From Clostridia bacterium (GTDB lineage Bacteria > Bacillota > Clostridia > Oscillospirales > RGIG8002): 64,000 nucleotides of DNA. The notes beneath the pieces are model-generated. The model did not search any database, was not told where the DNA came from, and saw only the letters and a program-made list of their open reading frames with translations. Positions 22,912-46,939 of this stretch are shown piece by piece. How positions within the stretch are numbered: position 1 is the first letter of the stretch; every line of letters begins with the position of its first letter. Position numbers and translations under genes: made by a program. The stretch is taken from positions 5,489-69,488 of the forward strand of contig JAFZXI010000010.1 in NCBI GenBank assembly GCA_017616855.1, given 5' to 3'.

Positions 22912-23838
22912 TTATTGCATTTTCCTGTATTCCTCGATTCGCGCAAGCAACGCGGCGCTGTCCTCGTCGGAAATCTGCGATTCGCCCTGATCGATCAGCT
23001 TGTAGGCGGCGGTTTCAAGCGCATCGAGCGAGATGTGCCTGTCCTTGTAAGCCGACGCGGGATTGTCGATTATCCAACGGAGAGGATATATTTCCCAATC
23101 GTCCGCTATAACCGCGTAGGGATTCGCAAACGCCTCGGCGATGCGCTTTTTATCCCCGGAATAGATGATGTCGATTTCCTCATCTGTGAAGCAGTAATCG
23201 CTAAATATCATTTCTTCTGTGAAGTAGTTTGTTGCACGGATCTCTTCAAGATACCTGCTATTCAATTCGACAAACTTTTCTTTAGGGATCTTCAGCTCGT
23301 CAACTATCTCAATCAAACTGAACGCCGCCCCTTGAACTGTCCTCCAATCCGTCTTAAACAGTGTCGATATATCCTCACCCGCCTGTTCGGTAATATAATC
23401 GTGCCACATTGTGGTAAACGATGTCAATCTGTCATCAGAATACATAAAGTTTGTCAATCTTATTCTGTTATCTCCACCGTGGGGTAAATCTGGATACGGC
23501 TCTTCATACGAACCCGGGGAGGCGGGCGTGATCGGCTGCGGCGGCTCGGATACGGTCGAATGACTATCGTCTTCGGGGGGATATATGATCTCCGAAACGT
23601 CGCTGCCGGAGCCGCTGCTTGACGCGGGATCGACCACGTTATTCGTGCCGAACACTCCCGCCATATTCAGCGCGACGGGCGTTCCTATTGCGAAAACTGC
23701 GAGCAATACCGCCGCGACGGCGTATTTCATCCAGGGCTTAAACGCCGTGACCTTCGTTTTTTCCGGCCGTGAGTCTGCGGCTTCGACAAGCTCGAAGTCT
23801 ATCAGCCCGACCGCTTCATTCATAATATCTTTATTCAT
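22912..23838 (-). CDS. Putative single-pass anti-sigma factor (pair 1) with a unique extracytoplasmic C-terminal domain
   Basis: 8-nt overlap with the upstream sigma gene. Short cytoplasmic N-terminus with AVGLIDFELVEAAD, KPWMKYA, then a TM. Paralogous N-termini occur at 25539 and 32722. Confidence 0.55.
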   Translation of the reverse strand: MNKDIMNEAVGLIDFELVEAADSRPEKTKVTAFKPWMKYAVAAVLLAVFAIGTPVALNMAGVFGTNNVVDPASSSGSGSDVSEIIYPPEDDSHSTVSEPPQPITPASPGSYEEPYPDLPHGGDNRIRLTNFMYSDDRLTSFTTMWHDYITEQAGEDISTLFKTDWRTVQGAAFSLIEIVDELKIPKEKFVELNSRYLEEIRATNYFTEEMIFSDYCFTDEEIDIIYSGDKKRIAEAFANPYAVIADDWEIYPLRWIIDNPASAYKDRHISLDALETAAYKLIDQGESQISDEDSAALLARIEEYRKMQ

Positions 23839-24385
23839 AGCTGCCTTCCTTTTTCAAATATTCCGTGAGGGAATCTCTCGTACGCTTCAGCATCATCTTG
23901 ACTCTGCTTTTGCCGAAACCGTAACGCTCGCATATCGCGGCTATCGAGTCGTAATACCAATAACGGCGAATAAACACGTTGCGTTCCGTTTCTTCGAGAG
24001 CGCGCAGGTAGTCCGTTATCAGCCGCGAAAGCTCGCGGGCGCCGACGGTCCGCTCGACGTCGAAGGCGTCGGCGATCTCGCCGAGCTCTTCGTAGGATTC
24101 GACGGATCTCGGGCGGCGCTTCCGCGCGTTGAGGCGCCGCGCTCTGTCCACGGCGGCGCTGCGGGCGAGCATGCCGAGATACGCTTTCAGGTTCTCCGGG
24201 CGCTTGGGCGGTATGTTCTCCCACGCGGCGAGCAGCGCGTCGTTGACGCATTCCTCGGCGTCGCTCTTGTTCCTCAGCACGTTTTCGGCGATACGGAGAC
24301 AGTAGTCGCCGTATCGCTTTTCCGCTTCCGCGACGGCGTTTTCGTCTCTGTTCCAGAACATACCGACAATGACTTCGTCTTCCAC
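23831..24385 (-). CDS. ECF-type sigma-70 family RNA polymerase sigma factor (pair 1)
   Basis: Region 2 (DAEECVNDALLAAWENIPP) and region 4 (RYWYYDSIAAICERYGFGKSRVKMMLKRTRDSL). I prefer GTG 24385 (MEDEVIVGMFW..., RBS GGGGGA). That gives 184 aa, like its two paralogs. The track start 24433 is probably too far upstream. Confidence 0.85.
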   Translation of the reverse strand: MEDEVIVGMFWNRDENAVAEAEKRYGDYCLRIAENVLRNKSDAEECVNDALLAAWENIPPKRPENLKAYLGMLARSAAVDRARRLNARKRRPRSVESYEELGEIADAFDVERTVGARELSRLITDYLRALEETERNVFIRRYWYYDSIAAICERYGFGKSRVKMMLKRTRDSLTEYLKKEGSYE

Positions 24386-24426
24386 ACCGTTCCCCCTCTC
24401 TTTTTCTTGAAAGGTCCTTTCACTTA

Positions 24427-24456
24427 TATACACGCAAAATGCGGCGTGCCGGTCAC
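24427..24456 (-). promoter_or_regulatory. ECF-like promoter candidate: GTGACC-N16-CGTGTATA upstream of sigma 1
   Basis: Nearly the same element (GTGACT-N16-CGGGTATA) sits at the equivalent distance upstream of sigma 3 (33310..33339). It resembles ECF promoters of the xGxAAC-N16/17-CGTx type. Confidence 0.5.
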
Positions 24457-24564
24457 GCTTTTTTTAATTATATCAAAAAAACGCGCAATCGCAATATTGC
24501 AATAACAAAACCGGCTCGCCGAGCCGGTTTTATTGCCTTTGAATTTGTTTTTATCGCGCCGCAA

Positions 24565-25539
24565 TCACGGGTTTATGATCTCATAAAGCCGCTGAGCGTT
24601 TTCGGGCGGTATCGGATAGAAATAATAGTAAATGAGCACAGGGGCGGACGGGTAGAAAGAAAACTGCGCGTACATTCCCTTCTTCGAATAGAAGCATATC
24701 CGGCACAATTCAACGTTAAGCAGCTCCTCGTCAAGATCGGTGTAGCTTTCCGTCATTCCGTTGCTCTTGACGAGCCGGCATATCTCGCTTATCAGCGCCG
24801 GATCCTCCGTCGAAAAAATCTGCTCGGTGTTTTCCTCGTGGAAGGCGGTGTTATAAACCGCTATACGCACGCAATCCTCCGGCATTCCGTTGGCCGCGAG
24901 TATCGCGTCGGTCGACGTGACGTCGGTCAATACAACGTCTCCGACGAAGAAGCGGTATTTGCCGTCATATCTGATTATGCAGAGTCCGTCGAGATCGGGC
25001 AGCAGCGCGAAATGATAGACCTTCTGCCCCGCGATGCCGAGTTCGCTCCCGGTAACGACGCCCATCTGCTCTCCGAGGTCTTCTTCTTTTATCCAATAGG
25101 TCGCGAGCGTCTTGAAGCCGCGCGGCAGTCCGTCCTTCAGCAGCGGCTCGAATCTGTGGAGATCGTCAGCCGAAAGGAGCCGGTAGCGCACGTTGAGGTC
25201 GCCGTTGATATAAGTTGAATCGCCAATCAAGAGGTCTACGCCGCCGATCTCATCGTCCGAGTTTGCGCCGCTTTGTATATGCGGCTCGCCGCTTTCACCG
25301 CTCTGTATCTGCTCGCTCGCGGGCGCGAAAACTCCTGTCGCGTTCAGCGCGACGAACGCGCCGACGATTATCACGCAGAAAATCGCAGCCGCCGCAGCCC
25401 ATTTGAACCATGTCTTTTTCGCGAGCGCCGTCAGCTCCTCCGTTTTTACGCTTTCCGGAGTCGCGGCGAGCGCGGATTCAATCAGTTCGTCGTCTATATT
25501 CGTTATGCCGTTAAAAAGCTCTTTCGCCTTTTCGCTCAT
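24565..25539 (-). CDS. Putative single-pass anti-sigma factor (pair 2) with a unique extracytoplasmic domain
   Basis: ATGA overlap with the sigma 2 stop. N-terminal GITNIDDELIESAL, KTWFKWA, then a TM. Confidence 0.55.
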   Translation of the reverse strand: MSEKAKELFNGITNIDDELIESALAATPESVKTEELTALAKKTWFKWAAAAAIFCVIIVGAFVALNATGVFAPASEQIQSGESGEPHIQSGANSDDEIGGVDLLIGDSTYINGDLNVRYRLLSADDLHRFEPLLKDGLPRGFKTLATYWIKEEDLGEQMGVVTGSELGIAGQKVYHFALLPDLDGLCIIRYDGKYRFFVGDVVLTDVTSTDAILAANGMPEDCVRIAVYNTAFHEENTEQIFSTEDPALISEICRLVKSNGMTESYTDLDEELLNVELCRICFYSKKGMYAQFSFYPSAPVLIYYYFYPIPPENAQRLYEIINP

Positions 25540-26093
25540 ATCTCAACACCTTCCCTTTCAAGCGCGGAACGTAAGCTACGCCGCAGGCGCAGCATCTTCT
25601 GCGCCAGCTTGTTCTGCGAAACGCCCCACTCGTCCGCGAGCGCGTTCAGCGCCTCGCCCTTCCAGTAGCGGCGGACGAAAAGCACGCGGTCGAGCTCGCT
25701 CTGCTCCCTCAGCCATTCGCTTATGACGCGGCCGAGCTCCTCGGAATCGACGCTGCCCTCCACGCTTCCGGACGCGGGAACGCAGTCTTCGAGCTCGCTG
25801 AGCAGCTGCTCGAAGCCGGAATAACGCTTCTGAGCGTGGTTTTTGTTCCACAGGTTCAGCGCGATGTTTCGCACGACCTTGCCGAGCCATGCTTTCAGCA
25901 GTTTCGGGCGTTCGGGCGGTATCGAATCCCACGCGCGCCTGTAAGCGTCGCTGACGCACTCCTCGGCGTCCTCGCGGACGGATAGCACGTTGAACGCCAC
26001 AGCGTAACAGTACGCGCCGTATTTACGCTCCGTCTGCGTGACAGCGTCTTCGTCACGCTGCCAGAATAGTTCGACGATGCGCTCGTCTTCCAT
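25536..26093 (-). CDS. ECF-type sigma-70 family sigma factor (pair 2)
   Basis: Regions 2 and 4 are paralogous to 23831..24385. I prefer ATG 26093 (MEDERIVELFW, GGAG 9 nt upstream) over the track start 26189. Confidence 0.85.
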   Translation of the reverse strand: MEDERIVELFWQRDEDAVTQTERKYGAYCYAVAFNVLSVREDAEECVSDAYRRAWDSIPPERPKLLKAWLGKVVRNIALNLWNKNHAQKRYSGFEQLLSELEDCVPASGSVEGSVDSEELGRVISEWLREQSELDRVLFVRRYWKGEALNALADEWGVSQNKLAQKMLRLRRSLRSALEREGVEI

Positions 26094-26284
26094 GCTTTCC
26101 ATCTCCTTTCGGGCGCCTCTGTTAATAAAGACAGCTTTTTTTCGGGAATATTTGCGTTGAGTTTGCTTTTTCCATAAGAATAATAACATATTTCCGCAGA
26201 AGCGTCAACTGCGGAAGATTATTGTTGCGTTTTGCGGCCGCTCCTGCTATAATTTAATCATAACAGATGAAAGGACGGATACAT

Positions 26285-30194: not shown

Positions 30195-30352
30195 CGTTTA
30201 TACCTCGTTTGATATTATTAATGCAAAGGCCGGCTATCCGTATACGTATCGCCGACCTTTGTATTATTTTATCATTTTTCCGTGCCTTTTGTCAATGGTG
30301 CATTTCGTATTCGTGCGCAAAGGTCGCCGTTGTCCCGCAGATCAGAGCGATC

Positions 30353-31324
30353 TTACGCAAGCTTCGCGGCAATTCTAAGGACTGAAAGCGCGTCTGCGAC
30401 CGTGACCTCTCCGTCACCGTCGAAATCGAACGCTGAGCCGGTACTCTTAGTCGGCTGCGCGAGTTTCGCGGCAACGCGCAGCACGAGCAGCGCATCCGCA
30501 ACGGTGACTTCCCCGTCGCCGTCAACGTCGCCGGCAAGCTGCTCTTCCTCGAGAACGGGCAGAGTAAAGCGCGTCATATACGCCGGCCCTTCGTGTGTGA
30601 TTATCTGGTTTTGCCCACTGCTGGTAACAATAGGCAAATCACTCGCCCCATAAAGAACAGCATCAGCGCCGAAATAGACTTCGGTCCCTTCCGGAATGGT
30701 ATACATTATCACCAGAGAATACTCCCACCCGGCTTTGATTTCACCTGTTGCTTTATGAAACGTACTTTCTGCGCTTTCCCTGCAAAGCAGTTCCGTAGAC
30801 TTATGGATACCGAATCCGTCCATATCCGCCGTTATTACTACATCATCTGCGTCCGCGCCGACGGCGTAACCGTCTATTCGGAAACTGACAGTATCATATG
30901 CCGATTGATACGGAGTCAACGCGAACTTCGCGATCAGATATTCGCCGTCTGAATAATACTCGTTCGCGGAACGACTATAAAGCCGGATCTGCTCTTTCGG
31001 AATGGACGAGAAGCCGTAGTATTCATCGATCCGCGGTATTATCTTCAGTTTTATGACAAGCGTATAGTTTACGCCGGCTTCTATTATACCCGTCGCCCGC
31101 TCTCCGTCGACTTCCAGATACGCCGATATGCCGTCGAACGCCCAACTCCAATCGGTATCGCGGAACTCGGCGGTGATATTCTCGGCAGATTTATGATAGT
31201 CATAACCACTATAAGTGAACACGAGAATATGATTCCATTCAGGAGCGTCCGCGAACACGGTCATACCCGCGAACACACTCAACAATAATACGAGCGCCAG
31301 AACAAATGATAATGCCTTTTTCAT
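30353..31324 (-). CDS. Secreted protein: unknown ~230-aa module plus a C-terminal type-I-like dockerin
   Basis: Signal peptide MKKALSFVLALVLLLSVFAGMTVFA. Two dockerin repeats, GDVDGDGEVTVADALLVLRVAAKL and FDFDGDGEVTVADALSVLRIAAKL. Confidence 0.75.
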   Translation of the reverse strand: MKKALSFVLALVLLLSVFAGMTVFADAPEWNHILVFTYSGYDYHKSAENITAEFRDTDWSWAFDGISAYLEVDGERATGIIEAGVNYTLVIKLKIIPRIDEYYGFSSIPKEQIRLYSRSANEYYSDGEYLIAKFALTPYQSAYDTVSFRIDGYAVGADADDVVITADMDGFGIHKSTELLCRESAESTFHKATGEIKAGWEYSLVIMYTIPEGTEVYFGADAVLYGASDLPIVTSSGQNQIITHEGPAYMTRFTLPVLEEEQLAGDVDGDGEVTVADALLVLRVAAKLAQPTKSTGSAFDFDGDGEVTVADALSVLRIAAKLA

Positions 31325-31378
31325 AGTTGTTTCCTCCTATAATCTGTATTATTCCGCTGTTATGCGGCGGGCAAACGT

Positions 31379-32722
31379 TTACTTGAGAATCGGAAGATAG
31401 AAAATCGTCATATACACAGGTATTCCTTCGTGTGTCATGATCTGGTTTTGTCCATTATTCGTGACGATGGGCGATTTACTCGCTCCGTAAAGTATCGCAT
31501 CCGCGCCGAAGTATACCTCGGTTCCTTCCGGAACGGTATACATTATCACCAAACTATACTCCCAGCCGGCTTTGATCTCACCGGTTGCGGCAACATATTC
31601 ACCGTTCGAGTTTTCCCTGCAATACAACTGCGTAAACTTATGTATACCAAAGCCGTCCATATTTGCAATAACTGTAATGTCGTCAATATTTGTACCGATT
31701 GAATAGCCGTTGATAGTGAAACCTACAGTGTCATATTCCGATTCGTACGGCGCAAGCTCAAACTTCGCGATCAGATAGTCCCCGTCGGAATAATACTCCT
31801 TTGCAGGCAGCGATGTCTGATTTTTGGTATTCATCTTGACCTGCTTTTTGGGTACATACGAAAATCCGTAATACTTGTCGAGCTTATGATCAAGCTTTAG
31901 CTTTATGACGAGCTTATACTTTATCCCGTCGTTTATCAGTCCGGTAACCGGCTTGCCGTTCTCTTCGAGATACGCTGATATACCGTCGAACGCCCAGCTC
32001 CAGTCGGTATCGGCGAAACACGCCGATACGTTTTCGGCAGGCTTATGATAATCGTAGCCGCTGTATGAGAACGTGAGGCAGCAATCCCATTCCGCAGCAT
32101 TTGTTGTTAAAAGGTTGCCCGCCTTCTCTTTAGTCATTCCCACAATATCGTCGATTGTGAACCCCTTATCATTAAGGGTTTTGACGTCGTCAAGCGTCAA
32201 GCCCAGCGCGTTTATCTTTTCAAGCTGCGCGGCGGTGTAATGCTTTTCTCCGGTATGAGCGGTATTATCTTCCGCGCCTTGATTTGTCCGGTCGGAGGAT
32301 CCGTCGGACGACGAGCTATAGTCTTCAGGTTGTGAGCTATGTTCATTATCCGCCTGCAGACTGCTCATATAATCCTCGTATTCACCGACGGTCATTTTGC
32401 TCGCGGTTTCTTTGTCGACTCCCATTTCGACGAGCTTTTCTATCAAGCTCTCGTCGAGAGGCTGCAATCGGCGCTCCGTTTCCGGATCGTAAATGATATG
32501 CGAGTAATCATCGCCAGGCGTCGCTGACGGCTGTGCGAATATAACGGCAAGCGCGGCGGCAGAGATCACGACCGCGGAAATCACAGCCGCCCATTTCAGC
32601 CAAGGCTTTTTCGCGAATACGGACAGACGCGTCGTTTTCGCGCGCGCGGGCATTTCGTCCGCCGCCTCGATAAGGTCAGAGCCGATAAAACCTATTGCAT
32701 TTTTTATCGTATCAATACTCAT
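31379..32722 (-). CDS. Putative single-pass anti-sigma factor (pair 3). Its extracellular C-terminal domain is a paralog of the module in the downstream dockerin protein.
   Basis: 11-nt overlap with the sigma 3 stop. N-terminal AIGFIGSDLIEAAD, KPWLKWA, then a TM. The C-terminal ~230 aa align along their length with residues ~30-260 of 30353..31324. Confidence 0.6.
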   Translation of the reverse strand: MSIDTIKNAIGFIGSDLIEAADEMPARAKTTRLSVFAKKPWLKWAAVISAVVISAAALAVIFAQPSATPGDDYSHIIYDPETERRLQPLDESLIEKLVEMGVDKETASKMTVGEYEDYMSSLQADNEHSSQPEDYSSSSDGSSDRTNQGAEDNTAHTGEKHYTAAQLEKINALGLTLDDVKTLNDKGFTIDDIVGMTKEKAGNLLTTNAAEWDCCLTFSYSGYDYHKPAENVSACFADTDWSWAFDGISAYLEENGKPVTGLINDGIKYKLVIKLKLDHKLDKYYGFSYVPKKQVKMNTKNQTSLPAKEYYSDGDYLIAKFELAPYESEYDTVGFTINGYSIGTNIDDITVIANMDGFGIHKFTQLYCRENSNGEYVAATGEIKAGWEYSLVIMYTVPEGTEVYFGADAILYGASKSPIVTNNGQNQIMTHEGIPVYMTIFYLPILK

Positions 32723-33269
32723 TGTAGCCTTCCCTTTTCAAGTATGCCGAGAGGCGTTCTCTCACGCGCTTCAGTATCATTTTGACCTTGCTCCTGCCGA
32801 TGCCGTAACGCTCGGCTATTGCATCTATCGGATCATAATACCAGTATCGTCTGATAAAGACATTGCGCTCGGTCGCGCCTTCGGTGAGCAGGAAATCGTG
32901 GATGATCTGCCCCAGCTCGATCTCACCGAGCGCCGTATCCGCGCCGCAGTCGGCGATCAATTCCTCGAGCTCGTCGAGCGAAGAGAGTGATCTCGGTCGG
33001 CGTTTCTGCGCGTTATTGCTCCGCCACCGGTCGACAGCAAACTCGCGCACAAGCTTTCCAAGGTAGGTTTTCAGGTTCTCAGGGCGCTGAGAGGGTATAC
33101 TTTTCCAGGCCGCATACAGCGCGTCGTTGAGGCATTCCTCAGCGTCGCGTTCGTCCTGCAGCACGTTTTGCGCTATATAAAGACAGTAGTCGCGGTATTG
33201 CTTTTCCGCTTCCGCAAGTGCGGATCCGTCCCTTTTGAGAAACAGCTTGATTATTTCCGAGTCGGTCAA
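32712..33269 (-). CDS. ECF-type sigma-70 family sigma factor (pair 3)
   Basis: TTG start with GGGGAGG RBS. Regions 2 and 4 are paralogous to the other two sigma genes. Confidence 0.85.
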   Translation of the reverse strand: MTDSEIIKLFLKRDGSALAEAEKQYRDYCLYIAQNVLQDERDAEECLNDALYAAWKSIPSQRPENLKTYLGKLVREFAVDRWRSNNAQKRRPRSLSSLDELEELIADCGADTALGEIELGQIIHDFLLTEGATERNVFIRRYWYYDPIDAIAERYGIGRSKVKMILKRVRERLSAYLKREGYNEY

Positions 33270-33309
33270 GCTTTTCCTCCCCTCTTGTCTGAAAATGTCC
33301 TTTCACTTC

Positions 33310-33339
33310 TATACCCGTAAAATGCGGCGCCAAAGTCAC
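33310..33339 (-). promoter_or_regulatory. ECF-like promoter candidate: GTGACT-N16-CGGGTATA upstream of sigma 3
   Basis: Part of a ~80-nt block conserved with the region upstream of sigma 1 (24386..24472). Confidence 0.5.
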
Positions 33340-33467
33340 ACTTTTTTATTATAACATAAATAACTTGACAGCACCGGGATATAAGAAAACAATATCGAGA
33401 GCGTAAAAGCATTCAAAAACGGCTCCCCTTTCGGGGAGCCGTTTTTCGGTTTATGCGTTTGTGCGAA

Positions 33468-36400
33468 TCAGAGCGAATCCGCAAGCTTCGCCGCGACGCG
33501 GAGGATCTGCAGAGCGTCGCCGACGGTTATCGTTCCGTCGCCGTCAACGTCGCCGGCCGCGAGCGCTTCGGGCGTTTCGGGAGCGAGCTTCGCGGCGATG
33601 CGGAGCGCGGCGAGCGCGTCCGAAACGGTTATTTCTCCGTCGCCGTCGAGGTCGCCGAGGATGACGTCTTCTTTATACGGATCCTCGTAAACGCCGCTGT
33701 CGGCGGGCAGCATAAAGAGCTTCCATCCTTCAAGAGAATCCTCGATGCAACGTCTTATATAATAGACGCCGTCGCGAGTGGCGACGCAGGAGTTATCCTG
33801 GTCGTAGCTGTCTGATATACCGTTGAATCCGGTATAGTAAAGCGGTTCGATCTCATCCGTCTCGGTGTTGTACACGAAGGCGTTGCCGCCGCCGTCAACG
33901 GACGCGTTGATAAAGAGCAGTCCGTTCTTCACGCACGTTTTGGCGTCGGAATGGTAGAGATAACCATCGAAGTCGTTGAGTCTGCCGACGTACTTCAGAT
34001 CGTCGCGCTTCTGCTCCCACTTCTCGCCGTCGAAGCAGTAAACGCCGCTTGCGACGCTCTCTTCCATCGAGAGCGAATCGTCGGTATAGAATCCGAACAT
34101 CGCGTAGAGCTTCCCGTTAGACTGCATGAAGGTGAATTCATAGATCGAGGCGGGCAGGTCTGCTTCCTTCGTCCAGGTATCCGCCGCGGGATCGTAACTG
34201 TACATCGGAAGACTGTCTTCGGTCGCTTCCTCGCTGGTATCGGTGGCGATGCAGTAGAGTTTTCCGTTATAGATTCCGGGAGTAAAACTAAAGGAAACCT
34301 CATCGTAGAACGCATCGGGCAGATCCGCCATCGGAGCGAAGTTCCAGCGGTGCGTTTCCGAATTCAAATCAAAGGTCGCAAGATACATATGATCGGGGTA
34401 GTAGTATTCGTCTTCTTCCTCGTCATATTCTTCATAGCACGCGTCGACGATAACGTAGATCACTCCGTTTTCGCAGAGCGGAATGTCGCGTTTGGCGGCG
34501 TATATTTCATAATCGTTATAAACGCTGAATCTGTCGGCGCCGTTAGCGATGAGCCATTCCTTAAATTCATCTACCATTACAGTTCTTTTGTAGGTTATGA
34601 AATATTCGCCGTTGAAATAACCGACCTCGTCCGTGTATAGGTAATAACCGTAAAGGTTTTCGCCATCGGCGTCGGTCAGCAGGTAAGGAATAGGTTCCCC
34701 CTTAATTGTGATATCAGTACCGACAAGTTCAAACTCCTTCTGCCCTCTTACGAGGAAGAAGCTCGCCTCGCCGCTGAGACCGTTAGCTCCGGTTACAACA
34801 AACTCGGTAAGGGTCGAGAAGAAGCTCTTTGCGTTGCTTATCACAAGCTTCGAGCCGTCTTCGAAGTATTCGACGGGCATATCTTCGGGAAGAGCAGTCT
34901 CTTCCGCGCCGTCGACCGCGATCCTCTTATAGGTGACCGCGCAGCCCTCGAACAGGTTCGCGCCAATCAGGGTGAGGGTTTCGTTATCAAGGTCGCAGTA
35001 AGCGTCGGAGATTGCGGGAACCGCCTCGTCAATCAGGGAAAGATCGACGTAACCGCCGGTGGAGCAAAGGTCCTTCAGTTCGTCGGTGCGTCTGACGCAG
35101 GAGAACAGCTTCGAGCGGATACGCCTCGCGTAATCGCCGCCGGACTCGCCTTCCTGCCTCGGATTGAGCGCCGCGAGCAGCGCGCCCGCGCCGCAGACGG
35201 CGGGCGTCGCCTGGGACGTGCCGGACATAAGGTCATACGAAGTGCCGGGCACAAGCTCGATATCGGGCTTGCTGATAGCGAAGGAATGAACATACATGCT
35301 GATATCGTGCGCTTCGCCTTCCGTTTCATCATCGACGTCTTCGCCATACGTATAAAAACCGAAACCGTATTCCGTTTCGGCGGTAGCGTCCGCGCTCAGT
35401 AAGAACGCGTCTCCTTGACCGTAGCTGGAAGTATGCCACACCATACCGTCGTAATCCTCTCCCGTTTTTGAGACGTAAAATCCGCAGTCAATGGACAGCA
35501 AGCCGTCGTCAGCTCTGTGAACGTCACCGCCGAGATAGCATCCTACGTATCCGTCTTCGGAAGCGATACATTCGGTGGTAATGGAGAAGTAGGTGTTGTC
35601 TCCGCCCGTAGTAAGCGAGTTCTTTTCATAAGGGAAGTAAATGTAATATCCTTCGCCGGGCTGGGCGTTTTTGACGGTGATCTTCAGACTGTATGGATTG
35701 TCGGCGTTGAAATATCTTCCGCTCTCAACGGAAAGCTCAAGATAAGCGTCGTCGGAGATTTCGTAGTCGTCGTCAAGGGATCTGAATCTCTGCTTGACGA
35801 ATACCAGGTCGCCGAACGCCTTGACGCCGTCGCCCGCTTTTGACCCGACGGAGGGAGTGATCGTGCCGTCCTTCACAACGGTATCGGCGTTGAACACACC
35901 GTAATACTCCGTGGTGTCGTTGAAAAGCTCTTCGTCGTACAGATCGGGGAAATAAACGTCGGCCGCGACGGAGGAAAGAATATTCTGCCCCGGTCCGAAA
36001 ACGTCGACTGATTTCTTGCCGTAGCAAGAGAAGGGAGTAGGCGTTCCGTTAATGTCCGCGGCTCCCACAGAGACCGCGTATTCGCTGTTGGAGTTTGAGG
36101 GGTAATCATACAGACGGTCGTTGTCGACGCCCTCGTTACCCGCGGCAATGTAGGAGATAACTCCTTCTTCACCCAGAAGGTCAATCAGGTAATCATAAAT
36201 CGTGCCGTAATAAGAACCGCCCCACGAATCGTTGATAGCGACGACGTTGACGCCGCCCAATACGGCCTTGTAGACGTAATTGTAGGCGCCGTATGTGTCA
36301 AAAAGAGAGCCGCCGCTGTATCCGTCGCCGCCCAATATTTTTATCGCCATGATCTTGACGTTCGCCTTTGAGGCGACGCCCGCGACGCCTTTGGCGTTAT

Positions 36401-37283
36401 TCGCCTGAGCCGCTATTGTACCGGAACAATGGCTGCCGTGGTCGTCATCATCCACGGGATCGTCGTCGTTATTGCAGAAGTCGAATCCGTGCTCGCCCTT
36501 GAGACCGATGTTGCCGGGATTCGTCCACATCATATCCGCCAAATCTTCATGGTCGCAGAAAACGCCCGAGTCGATGACGGCGACGACGACTTCGTCCTCC
36601 TCGCCGGTCAGTTTCGCCCAGCCGGACGCCGCGTTTATGGAAAATGCCGCTTCGGCTTCGGCTCCGCGGCCGTCAGTGTTTTTGCCGTCGACGTTCTGCG
36701 CCGCGGGAGAGTTGACGTTGAAAAGGTAGCTGTTGAGCGGATCGTTGAGCGAATAGTCGGCGTAAGACTCCTTCTTGACGCGGTAGTTCGGCTCGACGGC
36801 GAGGACGTTCTCGTCCTTGCTCAGCATCGCGATCATAGTCGCGGTATCGTATTTATCGGACGATACGAGCGCTATGCTGAAATCCTTGCCGGACGCAGCG
36901 TAAGACGGGGTTCCCTTTTTGCTGCCGCGTTTGGCGGCGCCGTCGTTGAACACCAGAGTATCCTCCAGGACGAACCCGTCGCCGAGGTTGGCGCCGATGA
37001 TGGCAATCTCGTCGTAAGCGGCGGAATACGCCTTATCTTCGGAACAGGACGCGTCCATGATCCTGCCGAAGTCCGCGCCAAGCGCGGAAAGGCCGCCCTT
37101 CTTCGGAGAAGCGCCGGAGTCTATCGCGCCGTTCTTAAACAGAACGACGACCTGCCCGGGAACGTAGGTGCCTTCGATCAGTTCGACAGGCGCCTCCGCG
37201 GGGGCTTCGTTCGCGCTCGCCGCAAACGGAAACGCGCACAGCAGCAGAGCGAACGCAAGTATCAGAGATAATGCTTTTTTCAT
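33468..37283 (-). CDS. Secreted subtilisin-like serine protease (peptidase S8) with a large insertion, a beta-propeller-like repeat region and a C-terminal dockerin
   Basis: Signal peptide. Catalytic blocks VAVIDSG (Asp), HGSHCSGTIAA (His), AAGNEG (oxyanion Asn) and MSGTSQATPAV (Ser). About 240 aa lie between GPGQNILS and the Ser block. Dockerin repeats are GDLDGDGEITVSDALAALRIAAKL and GDVDGDGTITVGDALQILRVAAKL. Confidence 0.9.
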   Translation of the reverse strand: MKKALSLILAFALLLCAFPFAASANEAPAEAPVELIEGTYVPGQVVVLFKNGAIDSGASPKKGGLSALGADFGRIMDASCSEDKAYSAAYDEIAIIGANLGDGFVLEDTLVFNDGAAKRGSKKGTPSYAASGKDFSIALVSSDKYDTATMIAMLSKDENVLAVEPNYRVKKESYADYSLNDPLNSYLFNVNSPAAQNVDGKNTDGRGAEAEAAFSINAASGWAKLTGEEDEVVVAVIDSGVFCDHEDLADMMWTNPGNIGLKGEHGFDFCNNDDDPVDDDDHGSHCSGTIAAQANNAKGVAGVASKANVKIMAIKILGGDGYSGGSLFDTYGAYNYVYKAVLGGVNVVAINDSWGGSYYGTIYDYLIDLLGEEGVISYIAAGNEGVDNDRLYDYPSNSNSEYAVSVGAADINGTPTPFSCYGKKSVDVFGPGQNILSSVAADVYFPDLYDEELFNDTTEYYGVFNADTVVKDGTITPSVGSKAGDGVKAFGDLVFVKQRFRSLDDDYEISDDAYLELSVESGRYFNADNPYSLKITVKNAQPGEGYYIYFPYEKNSLTTGGDNTYFSITTECIASEDGYVGCYLGGDVHRADDGLLSIDCGFYVSKTGEDYDGMVWHTSSYGQGDAFLLSADATAETEYGFGFYTYGEDVDDETEGEAHDISMYVHSFAISKPDIELVPGTSYDLMSGTSQATPAVCGAGALLAALNPRQEGESGGDYARRIRSKLFSCVRRTDELKDLCSTGGYVDLSLIDEAVPAISDAYCDLDNETLTLIGANLFEGCAVTYKRIAVDGAEETALPEDMPVEYFEDGSKLVISNAKSFFSTLTEFVVTGANGLSGEASFFLVRGQKEFELVGTDITIKGEPIPYLLTDADGENLYGYYLYTDEVGYFNGEYFITYKRTVMVDEFKEWLIANGADRFSVYNDYEIYAAKRDIPLCENGVIYVIVDACYEEYDEEEDEYYYPDHMYLATFDLNSETHRWNFAPMADLPDAFYDEVSFSFTPGIYNGKLYCIATDTSEEATEDSLPMYSYDPAADTWTKEADLPASIYEFTFMQSNGKLYAMFGFYTDDSLSMEESVASGVYCFDGEKWEQKRDDLKYVGRLNDFDGYLYHSDAKTCVKNGLLFINASVDGGGNAFVYNTETDEIEPLYYTGFNGISDSYDQDNSCVATRDGVYYIRRCIEDSLEGWKLFMLPADSGVYEDPYKEDVILGDLDGDGEITVSDALAALRIAAKLAPETPEALAAGDVDGDGTITVGDALQILRVAAKLADSL

Positions 37284-37455: not shown

Positions 37456-37626
37456 ATGAAATCGCGGCATGCCGCGGTGAAATCCGAGCACGCCCGGATG
37501 AAATCATTCGGCTGCGCCTCATGATGAAATTAAATCCGTCCTCTTTAACCCGGCGAAGCCGGATTTCATCGCGCAGCGATTTCATCCGCGAGAGCGGATT
37601 TAACCCGTCCGTAAGGACGGATTTAG
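37456..37626. repeat. Nested palindrome array A: 4 forward copies of (G)ATGAAATC(C), then 4 reverse copies, interleaved with GC mini-hairpins
   Basis: TGAAAT at 37457, 37478, 37499 and 37525. GGATTT(CA) at 37561, 37578, 37596 and 37619. Exact complementary pairs are 37496-505/37578-87, 37511-17/37571-77 and 37523-30/37563-70. Confidence 0.8.
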
Positions 37627-37628
37627 TT

Positions 37629-37656
37629 GAAAAGCCTCGCTTTCGCGAGGCTTTTC
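37629..37656. terminator. Hairpin with flanking A/T runs (bidirectional terminator-like)
   Basis: aaaagcctcgc-tttc-gcgaggctttt. Confidence 0.5.
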
Positions 37657-38735: not shown

Positions 38736-40168
38736 TGTTTCACATATTCAAGTTTGACTTCCGGACTTTAGCCGGCTCTTTGCGCTCAACACATCTTATT
38801 CTGTTTCTCTGAAAGCGTTTATGTTACAATTGTCTTCAAAGGGAGATGATTAGTATGAATAAAAAATACAGCGCTTTTGAAAAGCAAGCCGCAGTTGAGC
38901 GCTATCGCATAGGCGAGTCCGTTTCAAGCATTGTGTCGGATACCGGCATCCCTCGCAGTACCATATACACCTGGATTAAACATACCGCCGATGAGGCCTC
39001 TGCCAAACCGACCGTTTCCTTGAAAAACTACCGCTTTCTCGAGAAAAAAGTCAAACGACTGCAAGGCATCATTGAAATACTGAAAAGAGTTGGTTGCTCC
39101 GCTCTTGATCCTCTCAGTACAAAGCTCGCCGCTATGGAAGCATTACAAGATCAATACAGTGTGCATATGCTCTGTGAAGCGCTTGAAGTTCCAAGAGGAA
39201 CTTATTACAATTTCATTCTGCGAAACAAACGAACGCACACCTGGTATGCAAAGCGTCGGGAAGAGCTCAGACTGGAGATACAACGCATTTATGACGACAG
39301 TCATCAAATATTCGGCTCCGGCAAAATCTGCGCCATTATGAAAGAAAACGGCATACGCGTATCAAAAGAAATGGTATCTGAACTCATGCGTGATATGGGC
39401 CTTGTAAGTATTCGACAAAACGCCAAGGACTTATATGACAAGGAACAAAGGCGCTTCAAAAACTATCTGAATCAGCAATTCACCGTTACACGTCCTAATG
39501 AAGTTTGGGTAAGCGACGTAACGTGTTTCCGTTATAAAAACAAGAACTACTATGTCTGCGTGATCTTGGATCTTTTCTCCAGACTTGCCGTGGGATACCG
39601 CATAGGGAAAGCTAACAGCACTCAGCTTATCAGAAGCACTTTTCAGATGGCATATGAGCAACGACGCCCAACCGAACAGCTTATCTTCCACACCGACCGC
39701 GGTACTAACTTTCGGGCAAAATCATTCTGTTCTCTTTTGCGTTCGCTCGGCATCACTCAGTCTTTTTCAAGAGCCCATATCCCGTACGACAATTCGGTTA
39801 TGGAATCATTTTTCTCCAACTTAAAGAGAGAGGAATTATACCGAACAAAATACCGCTCTGAAAACGAATTCCGCACATCGGTAGACAAGTATATGACTTT
39901 TTATAACGAGCGACGTCCCCACGCAAAGAATGGATACAAGACGCCGCTAAGTAAAGAACTGGATTTTCTCAATAAACAAGCCGCTTTGGAGCAATTATTA
40001 AACTAGACAAGGGGGTTCGGATTGTAAAGATTTTTCGTTTCCGATTCTCATTTTGTGCTTTTTTGTTTTTCATGTCCAATTTGAAGCTTTAGATTATAAA
40101 GCTGTAAACCCGCAGAAAAACAGGAACAATAAAGAAACACCCTTTGTTGTCCAAACCCAGGGGGTTCA
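38736..40168 (+). mobile_element. IS3-family insertion sequence; boundaries uncertain and the left end is not resolved
   Basis: Transposase CDS inside. The candidate right terminal repeat ends in ...CA at 40168 (reverse complement TGAACCCCCTGGGTTTGGACAAC, IS3/IS150-like). I could not find a convincing matching left inverted repeat. Confidence 0.4.
38855..40006 (+). CDS. IS3-family transposase, single continuous ORF (HTH plus DDE/rve domain)
   Basis: N-terminal HTH (IPRSTIYTWIK). DDE residues in WVSDVTCF, HTDRGTNF and DNSVMESFFSNLKRE. ATG 38855 has GGGAG 9 nt upstream. Confidence 0.85.
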   Translation: MNKKYSAFEKQAAVERYRIGESVSSIVSDTGIPRSTIYTWIKHTADEASAKPTVSLKNYRFLEKKVKRLQGIIEILKRVGCSALDPLSTKLAAMEALQDQYSVHMLCEALEVPRGTYYNFILRNKRTHTWYAKRREELRLEIQRIYDDSHQIFGSGKICAIMKENGIRVSKEMVSELMRDMGLVSIRQNAKDLYDKEQRRFKNYLNQQFTVTRPNEVWVSDVTCFRYKNKNYYVCVILDLFSRLAVGYRIGKANSTQLIRSTFQMAYEQRRPTEQLIFHTDRGTNFRAKSFCSLLRSLGITQSFSRAHIPYDNSVMESFFSNLKREELYRTKYRSENEFRTSVDKYMTFYNERRPHAKNGYKTPLSKELDFLNKQAALEQLLN

Positions 40169-40189
40169 GATTCCAAAGGATGTTTCACA

Positions 40190-40263
40190 TGGTTGGAGCG
40201 GCAGGAATTGAACCTGCATCAACGGAGTCAAAGTCCGTTGCCTTACCATTAGGCCACGCCCCA
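40190..40263 (-). tRNA. tRNA-Gln (anticodon TTG), CCA encoded
   Basis: Hand-folded. U1:A72 acceptor TGGGGCG/CGCTCCA, anticodon loop CTTTGAC, T-arm GCAGG-TTCAATT-CCTGC. Confidence 0.85.
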
Positions 40264-40327
40264 ATATTGAGTTTTTATAAAGCCGCCCGTTGTTGCCGTA
40301 TCGGCATCGGCAAGGCGTCTTTATTGC

Positions 40328-40357
40328 AAAAGAGCATCGCACGTGCGATGCTCTTTT
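40328..40357. terminator. Perfect 15-bp palindrome hairpin between tRNA-His and tRNA-Gln
   Basis: aaaagagcatcgcac/gtgcgatgctctttt. Confidence 0.6.
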
Positions 40358-40363
40358 GCCGGT

Positions 40364-40441
40364 TGGGGTGGATGATCGGATTCGAACCGACGACCCCCAG
40401 GGCCACAACCTGGTACTCTAACCAGCTGAGCTACATCCACC
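40364..40441 (-). tRNA. tRNA-His (anticodon GTG) with encoded G-1 and CCA
   Basis: Hand-folded. G-1 opposite C73, anticodon loop TTGTGGC, T-arm GTCGG-TTCGAAT-CCGAT. Confidence 0.85.
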
Positions 40442-40494
40442 GTGTCCCACGATATTGACCGCTTCACAGAGTTTCGGCCCTGATAATAGGCCGC

Positions 40495-40571
<77 letters not shown>

Positions 40572-46924: not shown

Positions 46925-46939
46925 CCCAACATATTCAAA

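What the first reader, a model, noticed from the sequence alone, without database searches (positions are those of the whole stretch)
30353..32722. The anti-sigma sensor domain is a tandem paralog of the cargo module of the adjacent dockerin protein
The C-terminal ~230 aa of the anti-sigma-like protein (31379-32722) align along their full length with the N-terminal module of the next gene (30353-31324).
- Anti-sigma: TFSYSGYDYHKPAENVSACFADTDWSWAFDGISAYLE...EYYSDGDYLIAKFELAPYESEYDTV...GEIKAGWEYSLVIMYTVPEGTEVYFGADAILYGAS
- Dockerin protein: TYSGYDYHKSAENITAEFRDTDWSWAFDGISAYLE...EYYSDGEYLIAKFALTPYQSAYDTV...GEIKAGWEYSLVIMYTIPEGTEVYFGADAVLYGAS

The similarity is also visible at DNA level, for example around 30690-30745 versus 31520-31580. 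In the downstream gene the module is fused to a dockerin instead of a TM anchor. The two genes are separated by only 54 bp, and I saw no terminator between them.

The inference is that a sigma/anti-sigma switch senses, through module X, the same ligand that a cellulosome-attached module-X protein binds, and probably drives that protein's expression. The module matches no family I recognise.
Basis: partly seen in the sequence, partly recalled or inferred. Interest (0 to 1): 0.65.

Follow-up and report, generated by a model that had tools for sequence, protein, structure and literature searches.

The report
Anti-sigma sensor copied from dockerin cargo
In an uncultured rumen Clostridia bacterium, a putative membrane anti-sigma factor carries on its outer side a copy of the uncharacterised two-part beta-sandwich module that the next gene exports on a dockerin; this resembles the known biomass-sensing switches of cellulosome bacteria but uses different parts, and in related loci recombination with the cargo gene has kept the tip of the sensor matched to the cargo.

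Summary
Residues 201-447 of the 447-aa membrane protein (32722..31379, minus strand) align with residues 19-259 of the next protein (31324..30353) at 63% identity, E 8e-118. The DNA is 71-82% identical, the gap is 54 bp, and there is no terminator.

The unit is an ECF-type sigma gene, an overlapping single-pass membrane protein (putative anti-sigma) and a signal-peptide/module X/dockerin gene. This gene order recurs in seven related rumen-metagenome locus types.

Module X is two beta-sandwiches, XN and XC. It has no Pfam, PDB-sequence or Foldseek relative.

The new result is a mosaic. The N-terminal ~65 aa track the sigma type. The linker plus XN is a 90-100% identical cassette shared between loci. 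XC matches the neighbouring cargo gene in four locus types (65, 79, 95, 97%) but is only 25-40% identical between loci. One allele retains a dockerin remnant.

In the window the pair is old and under purifying selection (dS 1.4-2.1, dN/dS 0.12-0.15).

The logic has precedent in C. thermocellum (RsgI6-GH10/Xyn10D; sigma24C/Rsi24C). Ligand, anti-sigma activity and cohesin partner are untested. I rate it a new variant of a known kind.

The parts
33415..33446 (-). Strong intrinsic terminator. It ends the upstream S8 subtilase-dockerin transcription unit and marks the 5' boundary of the sigma operon.
   Evidence: 14-bp stem (8 GC pairs) followed by a T-run; sequence read.
33310..33356 (-). Candidate promoter region of the operon: an extended -10 TGTTATAAT (33356..33348) followed by an ECF-like element TGTGAC-N17-CGGGTATA (33340..33310).
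   Evidence: The pattern GTGAC-N-CGCCGCATTTT occurs only twice in the window, both times upstream of sigma paralogs, with 0 expected by chance. The strict motif is found only upstream of sigma genes in the window, L001 and L003; L012 has TGTGAC-N16-CGTCTA. An alignment of four upstream regions shows TG.TATAAT invariant and GTGTRAC conserved. Function is inferred.
32712..33269 (-). ECF-type sigma factor, 185 aa, TTG start after a GGAGG ribosome-binding site.
   Evidence: Pfam Sigma70_r2 at 34 bits and r4 at 28.3 bits. NCBIfam TIGR02937 sigma70-ECF at 61.7 bits against a 42.9 cut-off. There are two paralogs elsewhere in the window.
32597..32722 (-). AS residues 1-42: a short cytoplasmic segment (MSIDTIKNAIGFIGSDLIEAADE...), the putative sigma-binding anti-sigma segment. 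Its start overlaps the sigma stop by 11 nt.
   Evidence: Sequence. The motif is shared with the partners of the other sigma paralogs. This segment tracks sigma type across loci while the ectodomain does not. It has no Pfam anti-sigma domain.
32534..32596 (-). AS residues 43-63: single transmembrane helix (KWAAVISAVVISAAALAVIFA) preceded by the basic stretch KKPWLK, giving an N-in, C-out orientation.
   Evidence: Read directly from the sequence; the same pattern is conserved in alignment A4.
32099..32533 (-). AS residues 64-208: extracytoplasmic juxtamembrane linker, made of two helix-rich repeats around an acidic, Ser-rich spacer.
   Evidence: From about residue 70 it is 90-99% nt-identical to L001 AS, although the N-termini and XC are diverged. 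It is also present in L007 AS behind a different sigma and N-terminus. It shows no similarity to the subtilase.
31754..32098 (-). AS residues 209-323: subdomain XN, the membrane-proximal beta-sandwich (motif TDWSWAFDGISAYLE ... YLIAKFEL).
   Evidence: AF2 model with mean pLDDT 86. It is 91-94% identical to XN of other AS alleles and 61% to the window's own Doc XN. Against Doc: dS 2.13, dN/dS 0.12.
31382..31753 (-). AS residues 324-447: subdomain XC, the distal beta-sandwich, ending ...FYLPILK*.
   Evidence: AF2 XC-only model with pLDDT 88.7 and pTM 0.82. There is no PDB fold match (best E 0.21, TM at most 0.36). It is 65% identical to the window's own Doc XC but only 26-36% to XC of any other locus. 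dS 1.39, dN/dS 0.15.
31325..31378 (-). 54-bp AS-Doc intergenic region with an AGGAGG ribosome-binding site and no terminator.
   Evidence: fold z = -0.96.
31250..31324 (-). Doc residues 1-25: signal peptide (MKKALSFVLALVLLLSVFAGMTVFA/DA).
   Evidence: Read directly from the sequence. It is 82% identical to the signal peptide of L001 Doc.
30917..31249 (-). Doc residues 26-136: subdomain XN.
30548..30916 (-). Doc residues 137-259: subdomain XC, which directly abuts the dockerin (...FTLPVLE-EEQLAGDVDGDG).
   Evidence: The same XC-dockerin junction is seen in L001, L005, L007 and L011 Doc proteins.
30356..30535 (-). Doc residues 264-323: type I dockerin with two Ca-binding repeat segments.
   Evidence: Pfam Dockerin_1 at 39.2 bits against a 22.9 cut-off. 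Internal 73-nt direct repeat at 30356-30428/30458-30530.
33468..37283 (-). Neighbouring S8 subtilase-dockerin gene, 1271 aa. It is a separate transcription unit; the association with this kind of sigma/AS unit recurs.
   Evidence: Pfam Peptidase_S8 at 119 bits plus Dockerin_1 at 30 bits. An S8-dockerin gene also follows the AS gene in L011.

Best explanation
This is a three-gene operon for surface signalling.

Anatomy (shown). An ECF-type sigma factor is translationally coupled to a single-pass membrane protein. That protein has a ~42-aa cytoplasmic N-terminus and an extracellular part made of a helical linker and module X. Module X is two beta-sandwiches, XN and XC. The third gene encodes the same module X behind a signal peptide and fused to a type I dockerin.

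Mechanism (inferred). The short N-terminus holds the sigma inactive. An extracellular event acts on the X sensor, most simply binding of the polymer or surface that the secreted X-dockerin protein also binds. This event releases the sigma, probably by regulated proteolysis as in other ECF and RsgI systems. The sigma then transcribes its own operon from the TGTGAC-N17-CGnnTA element, and so the dockerin protein. The distal subdomain XC would be the specificity-bearing part.

Evolution (shown). In four locus types XC of the sensor has been overwritten from, or has co-diverged with, XC of the adjacent cargo gene. Sensor and cargo therefore stay matched while XC differs widely between loci.
For: Anatomy:
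- ORFs, the 11-nt overlap, the 54-bp gap and the ribosome-binding sites are read.
- The sigma is ECF-type.
- Doc has a dockerin and a signal peptide.
- There is no terminator or structure between AS and Doc.

Paralogy and selection:
- 63% identity, E 8e-118.
- dN/dS 0.12-0.15 with saturated dS. Both copies are therefore kept functional.

Conserved gene order. Sigma/AS/dockerin gene(s) recur in the window (8 contigs), L001/L003, L004, L005, L007-L010, L011 and L012. Gaps are mostly 27-66 bp.

The AS N-terminus tracks sigma type:
- the window, L012 and L005 sigmas are 56-65% identical and share the M.ID..I.AIG.ID..[LI][IV][ED] motif;
- the L001/L004 sigmas (36-41%) go with MKGNELL..MELIAPEYIEAAE;
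- the L007 sigma (27%) goes with an unrelated N-terminus;
- all of these carry the same linker.

Mosaic and matching:
- Linker plus XN is 90-100% nt-identical between the window and L001, with diverged flanks.
- XC identity within a locus is 65, 79, 95 and 97%, against 25-40% between loci.
- In L001 and L004, XC dS is 0.32 and 0.12 while XN dS is 1.7 and 1.15.
- L004 AS continues past XC into a dockerin remnant cut by a stop codon. This shows the copying ran from Doc to AS.

Promoter: a candidate ECF-like motif occurs only upstream of sigma paralogs.

Precedent: RsgI6-GH10 is 57% identical to cellulosomal Xyn10D, whose promoter sigma-I6 activates (PMC4711584). Sigma24C/Rsi24C is an ECF-type pair with a GH5-like sensor (PMC3990059).
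Against: - No direct evidence that AS binds the sigma. It has no recognised anti-sigma domain, and a profile search with the N-terminus found nothing informative.
- X has no similarity to any CBM or solved structure, so ligand binding is a guess.
- The subdomains belong to a repeat family that also forms long multi-repeat surface proteins. That would suit a stalk or adhesin role as well.
- Matching is not obligatory. L005/L011 AS has an unrelated ectodomain upstream of X-dockerin genes, and L007 AS is only ~25% identical to its Doc XC.
- Gene conversion between adjacent paralogs can be neutral.
- The most conserved upstream element is a sigma-A-type TGnTATAAT, so the ECF promoter assignment is uncertain.
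- No cohesin is in the window, and the genome is not available.
Confidence: 0.5

Rival explanations
1. Cargo monitoring rather than substrate sensing. The sensor is a molecular mimic of the operon's own product. There are two versions. In one, XC on the anti-sigma contacts XC of the secreted X-dockerin protein by a homophilic beta-sandwich contact. In the other, an extracellular activity that acts on the cargo, for example the recurrently neighbouring dockerin-borne S8 subtilase, acts equally on the mimic and provides the site-1 cleavage. The operon would then report occupancy or turnover of its own cellulosomal component.
For: - XC is hypervariable between loci (25-40%) yet matched within a locus (65-97%) in four locus types. 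This pattern is typical of self-recognition or insulated pairs.
- Copying runs from Doc into AS (dockerin remnant in L004).
- In L012 the anti-sigma also carries a ~100-aa domain 34% identical (E 1e-10) to the prodomain of the L011 S8 subtilase-dockerin. So ectodomains in this family are assembled from pieces of neighbouring dockerin-protein genes.
- S8-dockerin genes sit next to these units in the window and in L011.
Against: - There is no evidence of X-X contact or of cleavage, and no multimer model could be run.
- The window's own AS has no prodomain-like part.
- The window's XC pair is only 65% identical, which is low for a strict homophilic code.
- L005, L007 and L011 lack matching altogether.
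- The common-ligand model explains matching equally well.
Confidence: 0.2
2. Neutral by-product. The ectodomain arose by tandem duplication of the cargo gene. It is homogenised now and then by gene conversion simply because the two genes are adjacent and similar. X on the anti-sigma is a structural stalk without specificity, and the signal, if any, is perceived elsewhere, for example in the linker or the membrane.
For: - The X subdomains are members of a repeat family used as multi-copy building blocks of surface proteins, with up to about 21 matched stretches in one protein.
- Foldseek gives only weak, non-significant matches (best E 0.066); the best-ranked for the two-domain model are Ig/Fn3-type chains.
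- Conversion tracts with low dS are seen.
- Related anti-sigmas work with unrelated ectodomains.
Against: - In the window both copies have been under purifying selection over a saturated synonymous distance (dN/dS 0.12-0.15). No recent conversion explains their similarity.
- Conversion is confined to XC while XN stays at dS 1.15-1.7 in the same gene pairs.
- Matching recurs in four locus types with three different sigma or N-terminus contexts.
Confidence: 0.15
3. The 447-aa protein is not an anti-sigma factor. It is a membrane-anchored surface display form of module X that happens to be co-transcribed with a sigma factor, giving a cell-bound and a dockerin-borne version of one binding protein.
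For: - It has no recognised anti-sigma domain.
- The cytoplasmic part is only ~42 aa, without a Zn motif (sequence).
- One gene caller even started the protein at residue 86 (P0001).
Against: - It overlaps the sigma stop by 11 nt, and the full-length N-terminus is conserved in orthologs.
- Three sigma paralogs in the window each have such a partner with the same N-terminal motif and unrelated ectodomains.
- The N-terminus co-varies with sigma type across loci.
- Short anti-sigma domains exist (CnrY-type class II; from my own knowledge, not tested here).
Confidence: 0.1

Closest known systems
Clostridium (Acetivibrio) thermocellum sigma-I / RsgI biomass-sensing pairs, especially RsgI6 (GH10 sensor) and cellulosomal Xyn10D
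   Same: - A membrane anti-sigma whose extracellular C-terminal module is a paralog of a module carried by a dockerin-bearing protein. The RsgI6 GH10 module is 57% identical to Xyn10D, compared with 63% here.
- The cognate sigma is autoregulated and activates the gene of that paralog (PMC4711584).
- Multiple paralogous sigma/anti-sigma pairs occur per genome.
   Different: - The sigma here is a plain ECF type (r2 + r4, TIGR02937), not sigma-I.
- The anti-sigma has no hit to any Pfam family, which rules out RsgI_N and the autoproteolytic RsgI middle domain.
- The sensor is an unannotated beta-sandwich didomain, not a CBM3, CBM42, PA14, GH10 or GH5 module.
- The target gene lies in the same operon instead of elsewhere in a regulon.
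- The distal sensor subdomain shows repeated recombination with the cargo gene.
C. thermocellum sigma24C / Rsi24C (Cthe_1470/1471)
   Same: It is an ECF-type (sigma-24-like) sigma paired with a membrane anti-sigma. The anti-sigma carries a module related to cellulosomal enzymes (GH5-like). The pair is induced on biomass (PMC3990059).
   Different: - The sensor there is a recognisable glycoside-hydrolase fold.
- No adjacent dockerin paralog was noted in the passages read here.
- Homology between the two sigma/anti-sigma pairs was not tested here.
Generic ECF sigma / single-pass anti-sigma modules controlled by regulated intramembrane proteolysis (B. subtilis sigma-W/RsiW, sigma-V/RsiV; from my own knowledge)
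   Same: - Co-transcribed, overlapping sigma and anti-sigma genes.
- An N-in single-pass anti-sigma with an extracytoplasmic sensor.
- A -35 TGxxAC / -10 CGT-type autoregulatory promoter candidate.
   Different: - The cytoplasmic segment here is only ~42 aa, with no HxxxCxxC motif and no Pfam hit.
- No protease sites or RIP components were identified.
X-module-dockerin dyads of cellulosomal scaffoldins and adaptor proteins (type II/III XDoc; from my own knowledge)
   Same: In the cargo proteins a beta-sandwich (XC) directly abuts the dockerin with a conserved junction (...F.LP.LEEEQ.AGDVDGDG) in several loci.
   Different: - There is no sequence or fold match to solved X modules.
- The same XC also ends the anti-sigma, where no dockerin follows.
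- The dockerin scores as type I.

Membership tests
ECF (group 4) sigma-70 factors | Only regions 2 and 4, about 170-200 aa | tested here: met
   Pfam Sigma70_r2 and Sigma70_r4 above their cut-offs. TIGR02937 at 61.7 bits against 42.9. Length 185 aa.
ECF (group 4) sigma-70 factors | Co-transcribed cognate anti-sigma immediately downstream | tested here: inconclusive
   The downstream gene overlaps by 11 nt, is N-in single-pass, and its N-terminus co-varies with sigma type. Binding has not been shown.
ECF (group 4) sigma-70 factors | Autoregulatory promoter with AAC-type -35 and CGT-type -10 | tested here: inconclusive
   TGTGAC-N16/17-CG..TA is conserved upstream of four sigma paralogs and found nowhere else. 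An invariant sigma-A-like TGnTATAAT lies just upstream. No transcript data are available.
Sigma-I / RsgI | RsgI N-terminal anti-sigma-I domain | tested here: not met
   No Pfam family at all at E <= 0.01 for the 447-aa protein and no NCBIfam hit.
Sigma-I / RsgI | Conserved juxtamembrane extracytoplasmic domain with autoproteolysis (RsgI-like domain, PF23750 as named in PMC12663171) | tested here: not met
   No Pfam hit. The linker here is a different, helix-rich sequence.
Sigma-I / RsgI | Sigma of the sigma-I type with the sigma-I-specific C-terminal domain | tested here: not met
   The sigma carries a canonical r4. Its best NCBIfam model is sigma70-ECF; a SigI-named model (NF007213) reaches only 21 bits against a 317 cut-off.
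Sigma-I / RsgI | C-terminal extracellular sensor homologous to a module of cellulosomal proteins | tested here: met
   63% identity to the cargo module of the adjacent dockerin protein.
Class I (ZAS-type) anti-sigma domain | zf-HC2 / HxxxCxxC motif within an ~80-aa N-terminal helical domain | tested here: not met
   No His or Cys in residues 1-42 and no Pfam zf-HC2 hit.
Type I dockerin proteins | Duplicated Ca-binding F-hand segment at the C-terminus of a secreted protein | tested here: met
   Dockerin_1 at 39.2 bits against 22.9. Two DxDGDGEVTVADAL segments and a 73-nt internal repeat. Signal peptide present.
Type I dockerin proteins | Cognate cohesin or scaffoldin in the genome | not testable with these tools
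   No cohesin hit among the window ORFs scanned. The rest of the genome is not available, and GTDB representative genomes hold no relative of X or of the linker.
Carbohydrate-binding modules | Sequence or fold membership in a CBM family | tested here: not met
   No Pfam hit and no PDB sequence hit at E <= 1. Foldseek best E is 0.066 (didomain) and 0.21 (XC), with TM at most 0.36.
Carbohydrate-binding modules | Binding to a polysaccharide | not testable with these tools
   This needs recombinant protein and glycan or insoluble-substrate binding assays.

The most novel reading that the evidence does not exclude
The anti-sigma does not sense a food substrate. It senses the fate of its own operon product. 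Its ectodomain is a recombination-refreshed mimic of the secreted cargo: XC copied from the X-dockerin gene and, in L012, a prodomain copied from a dockerin-borne subtilase. Either homophilic XC-XC contact, or cleavage by the cellulosomal subtilase of both cargo and mimic, would set sigma activity. This would be a self-monitoring (homeostatic) circuit for a cellulosome-like surface complex, with hypervariable XC insulating parallel circuits from one another.
Probability: 0.2. Interest if true: 0.8.

Novelty: new variant of a known kind. Interest (0 to 1): 0.55.

Why it matters
Outside the Acetivibrio and Pseudobacteroides group with its sigma-I/RsgI pairs, it is unknown how dockerin-bearing gut and rumen Clostridia decide which surface-complex components to make. 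A recent R. bromii amylosome study found no RsgI homologs and called the regulatory system uncharacterised (PMC12663171).

This locus offers a candidate. It would be an independent solution with the same logic: a sensor that is a copy of the cargo. It is built from an ordinary ECF sigma, a very short unannotated anti-sigma segment and a beta-sandwich module with no Pfam or PDB relative.

The mosaic pattern, with the distal subdomain matched to the neighbouring cargo in four locus types, is a natural experiment. It points to XC as the specificity-bearing part and supplies ready-made cognate and non-cognate pairs for binding and swap experiments.

It would also add an uncharacterised non-catalytic dockerin cargo family. 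These proteins recur next to dockerin-borne subtilases, which hints at surface complexes not devoted to cellulose.

Tried and rejected
1. Pfam and NCBIfam on AS and Doc found nothing for X, the linker or the AS N-terminus.
2. Two GTDB representative-genome scans, one with an X alignment and one with a linker alignment, found no relatives. A first attempt failed because the alignment was not conserved enough. No named organism carrying the system was found.
3. The JGI metagenome scan gave one locus only, L011.
4. A profile search with the AS N-terminal 70 aa against 5.8 billion proteins returned only five short unnamed fragments. It gave no annotation for the putative anti-sigma segment.
5. Foldseek against PDB, with the didomain model and with XC alone, gave no hit below E 0.06, so a CBM-like or specific Ig-family assignment was rejected. 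PDB sequence searches were empty.
6. I looked for a second copy of the candidate ECF promoter upstream of the Doc or subtilase genes. There is none, so an independent sigma-dependent promoter for Doc is not supported and co-transcription is preferred.
7. I tested whether the window's AS linker derives from the neighbouring subtilase, as the L012 AS prodomain-like part does. There is no similarity.
8. I considered that L004 AS (XN + XC + dockerin remnant) is an assembly chimera and rejected it. The remnant is diverged from the intact dockerin (dS 0.59) and interrupted by a stop. It is followed on the same contig by a 145-bp spacer and the start of the Doc gene.
9. Pfam on multi-repeat relatives of XC showed that the repeat itself has no Pfam model.
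10. A first attempt at the per-subdomain identity matrix timed out. It was redone from a single alignment.


Full report
**Observation**

On the minus strand the window carries, in order:
- an S8 subtilase-dockerin gene (37283..33468), ended by a strong terminator (33446..33415);
- an ECF-type sigma gene (33269..32712, 185 aa);
- a 447-aa protein, 'AS' (32722..31379), whose start overlaps the sigma stop by 11 nt;
- a 54-bp gap with an AGGAGG ribosome-binding site;
- a 323-aa protein, 'Doc' (31324..30353);
- an unrelated EEP-family gene.

AS 201-447 aligns with Doc 19-259 at 63% identity (155/247), E 8e-118. The gap holds no terminator-like site and no significant structure (z = -0.96). Doc has a signal peptide and a Dockerin_1 domain above Pfam's threshold.

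**What the proteins are**

The sigma has Pfam regions 2 and 4 and passes NCBIfam's sigma70-ECF model at 61.7 bits against a 42.9 cut-off.

AS has no Pfam or NCBIfam hit. Reading the sequence gives:
- a 42-aa cytoplasmic segment (MSIDTIKNAIGFIGSDLIEAADE...), with no His or Cys;
- one transmembrane helix after a basic patch, so N-in;
- a ~145-aa helix-rich, acidic linker;
- module X.

The window holds two more sigma paralogs (58% and 38% identical). Each is followed by a protein with the same kind of N-terminus and helix but an unrelated ectodomain.

AlphaFold2 models X as two beta-sandwiches, XN and XC. The didomain model has pLDDT 86.2 and the XC-only model has pLDDT 88.7 and pTM 0.82. Foldseek against PDB finds nothing better than E 0.066 (didomain) or 0.21 (XC), with TM at most 0.36. 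For the didomain model the best-ranked, non-significant matches are mostly Ig/Fn3-type chains. PDB sequence searches are empty. There is no support for calling X a CBM.

**How common the module is**

A word-indexed search of 5.8 billion proteins found nine relatives. An exhaustive profile search of 1.84 billion representatives found 102 at E <= 1e-3, but only about 15 match both subdomains.

The others carry XC-like repeats (motif F.L.GY..G....D..V ... F.LP.L) in secreted proteins with SLH, membrane or dockerin anchors. A few weak partial matches fall in giant cadherin-like proteins. The repeat has no Pfam model.

So X is not a ubiquitous linker.

**Related loci**

All relatives come from rumen or gut metagenomes. 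Two scans of GTDB representative genomes found none. The sigma/AS/dockerin-gene order recurs in these locus types:

| Locus | Arrangement |
|---|---|
| Window | Same arrangement on 8 contigs |
| L001/L002/L003 | sigma, AS, X-Doc |
| L004 | sigma, AS, X-Doc |
| L012 | sigma, AS (P0012), start of the P0011-type X-Doc |
| L007-L010 | A different ECF sigma; AS with the same linker but only a remote X; Doc with an unknown N-terminal domain, XC and dockerin |
| L005/L006 | Sigma like the window's; AS with an unrelated ectodomain; X-X-Doc |
| L011 | AS with an unrelated ectodomain, then four dockerin genes (S8 subtilase, prodomain-only, Big_2, X-Doc) |

Intergenic gaps are mostly 27-66 bp. Heading an operon of dockerin-protein genes thus appears to be the conserved job of these sigma/AS units.

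**The mosaic (main new result)**

Window AS and L001 AS are 90-100% nt-identical from about residue 70 to about residue 300, which covers the linker and XN. They are only ~45-50% nt-identical in the N-terminal ~65 aa and in XC.

The N-terminal segment goes with the sigma type:
- the window, L012 and L005 sigmas are 56-65% identical and share one N-terminal motif;
- the L001/L004 sigmas (36-41% to the window's) share another;
- the L007 sigma (27%) has a third.

This co-variation is the best available evidence that the N-terminus is the sigma-binding part.

XC goes with the neighbouring cargo gene. The four locus types in the table are the four in which sensor and cargo XC match.

| Locus type | XC identity, AS vs own Doc |
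|---|---|
| Window | 65% |
| L001 | 79% |
| L004 (Doc proxied by L011) | 95% |
| L012 (P0012/P0011) | 97% |
| Any XC between loci | 25-40% |

XN behaves the opposite way. AS copies from the window, L001 and L004 are 91-94% identical to each other and 48-61% identical to their own Doc.

Nei-Gojobori estimates show recent conversion confined to XC.

| Locus | XC dS | XN dS |
|---|---|---|
| L001 | 0.32 | 1.72 |
| L004 | 0.12 | 1.15 |

L004 AS runs on past XC into a dockerin remnant (ELAGDIDGDGKVTVSDAL*VLRVAAKLA*). This shows that sequence moved from the Doc gene into the AS gene. Contigs L004 and L012 break exactly where the repeat begins, as expected when two near-identical copies sit in one genome.

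In the window itself synonymous sites are saturated (dS 2.13 for XN, 1.39 for XC), with dN/dS 0.12-0.15. The similarity there is old and kept by purifying selection on both genes.

**Promoter**

Upstream of four sigma paralogs (window sigma 3 and sigma 2, L001, L012) an alignment shows two elements:
- an invariant TGnTATAAT;
- 6-13 nt downstream, TGTGAC/TGTAAC-N16/17-CG..TA, which resembles Bacillus ECF promoters (my own knowledge).

The strict motif occurs nowhere else in the window or the loci. In particular it is absent upstream of Doc and of the subtilase. Which element is sigma-dependent is inferred, not shown.

**Most likely mechanism (confidence 0.5 for the whole chain)**

The anatomy is shown. 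The following steps are inferred:
1. AS holds the sigma through its short N-terminus.
2. An extracellular event on X releases the sigma. The simplest event is binding of the same target that the secreted X-dockerin protein binds. Release is probably by regulated proteolysis.
3. The sigma transcribes sigma, AS and Doc.
4. XC, the distal and locus-specific subdomain, carries the specificity.

Rivals:
- Cargo monitoring, in which the sensor mimics its own product, through homophilic XC contact or cleavage by the recurrently neighbouring dockerin-borne subtilase (0.2). It gains some support from L012, where the anti-sigma also carries a domain 34% identical (E 1e-10) to a subtilase prodomain.
- Neutral duplication and conversion of a structural stalk (0.15).
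- AS is a display protein, not an anti-sigma (0.1).

**Comparison with what is known**

The logic matches C. thermocellum sigma-I/RsgI. The RsgI6 GH10 sensor is 57% identical to cellulosomal Xyn10D, and sigma-I6 activates the xyn10D promoter (PMC4711584). An ECF-type pair with a GH5-like sensor, sigma24C/Rsi24C, also exists there (PMC3990059).

Membership in the RsgI/sigma-I family fails on three defining features: no RsgI_N, no RsgI middle domain, and a sigma that is not sigma-I. It works like that system but is not a member.

The organism is an uncultured rumen 'Clostridia bacterium'. Its adenosylhomocysteinase is at least 87% identical only to MAG proteins and about 70% identical to Ruminiclostridium and Acetivibrio proteins. 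This is a single-gene indication only.

For Ruminococcus-type dockerin systems the literature states that no RsgI homologs are found and that regulation is uncharacterised (PMC12663171).

**Verdict**

The finding is real and interpretable. I rate it a new variant of a known kind, with interest 0.55. It gains interest from the sensor/cargo co-variation and from a module with no Pfam or PDB relative. It is limited by the complete absence of functional data and by the known precedent for the concept.

Noticed in passing
window 37558-37629 (-): An Rfam Gut-1 RNA (RF01706, 53.6 bits against a gathering score of 50) lies about 275 nt upstream of the S8 subtilase-dockerin gene, on the same strand. 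It sits in a region of repeated ATGAAATC...GATTTCAT hairpins. To my knowledge Gut-1 is an orphan motif.
   Followed up: no
window 22912-26189 (-): Two further paralogous ECF sigma/putative anti-sigma pairs: sigma 25536-26189 with AS 24565-25539, and sigma 23831-24433 with AS 22912-23838. They share the IDxxLIEAA-type N-terminus and transmembrane helix but have unrelated, unannotated ectodomains. Neither is followed by a dockerin gene.
   Followed up: partly
window 24384-24495 (-) and 33270-33375 (-): The upstream regions of sigma 2 and sigma 3 are collinear over about 75 nt (TATAAT, A-run, GTGAC, CGCCGCATTTT, GTATA, AAGTGAAAGGAC). This goes beyond a promoter-sized motif and may include a conserved 5' leader. 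The annotated ATG at 24433 lies inside this element, so the true sigma 2 start is probably the GTG near 24386.
   Followed up: partly
L004 1795-1876: The anti-sigma allele P0004 continues after XC into a decayed dockerin (ELAGDIDGDGKVTVSDAL*VLRVAAKLA*). This is a footprint of copying from the adjacent X-dockerin gene.
   Followed up: yes
L012 655-2076 (P0012), residues ~150-250: Between the membrane helix and X, this anti-sigma has a domain 34% identical (E 1e-10) to the N-terminal prodomain of the L011 S8 subtilase-dockerin. L011 also encodes a stand-alone prodomain-dockerin protein at 2863-3552.
   Followed up: partly
L011 66-5888: A putative anti-sigma with a non-X ectodomain heads a run of four same-strand dockerin genes: S8 subtilase, prodomain-only, Big_2 and X-Doc. 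Its downstream flank (ECF-transporter S component) matches that of L001, so the two look like alternative alleles of one hypervariable locus.
   Followed up: partly
window 33468-37283 (-): In the 1271-aa subtilase-dockerin, residues 445-1208 lie between the best Pfam S8 match (230-444) and the dockerin and have no other Pfam hit. The region was not analysed further.
   Followed up: no
window 38846-40571: An IS3-family transposase (rve, HTH_21; 38846-40006, +) sits in a low-GC stretch (42.5% against about 56%), next to a tRNA-Gln/His/Arg cluster (40190-40571, -). The AS-Doc region is also lower in GC (48%).
   Followed up: no
window 30210-30295 (-): Between Doc and the EEP-family gene lies a near-consensus sigma-A promoter with an extended -10 (TTGACA-18-TAAAAT, 11/12). 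Its second hexamer overlaps the start of a strong hairpin (CAAAGGUCGGC...GCCGGCCUUUG), which is not followed by a clean U-run. It is unclear whether this hairpin ends the sigma operon or is a leader of the next gene.
   Followed up: partly
window 46935-47176 (+): A T-box leader (93.5 bits against a gathering score of 93) lies upstream of an AMP-binding enzyme gene at 47222-48865, rather than a tRNA synthetase.
   Followed up: no
window 32467 (TTG) within AS: One public gene call (P0001, 362 aa) starts AS at an internal TTG (residue 86), which would remove the N-terminus and the membrane helix. Ortholog conservation and the 447-aa call on L013 support the long form.
   Followed up: yes
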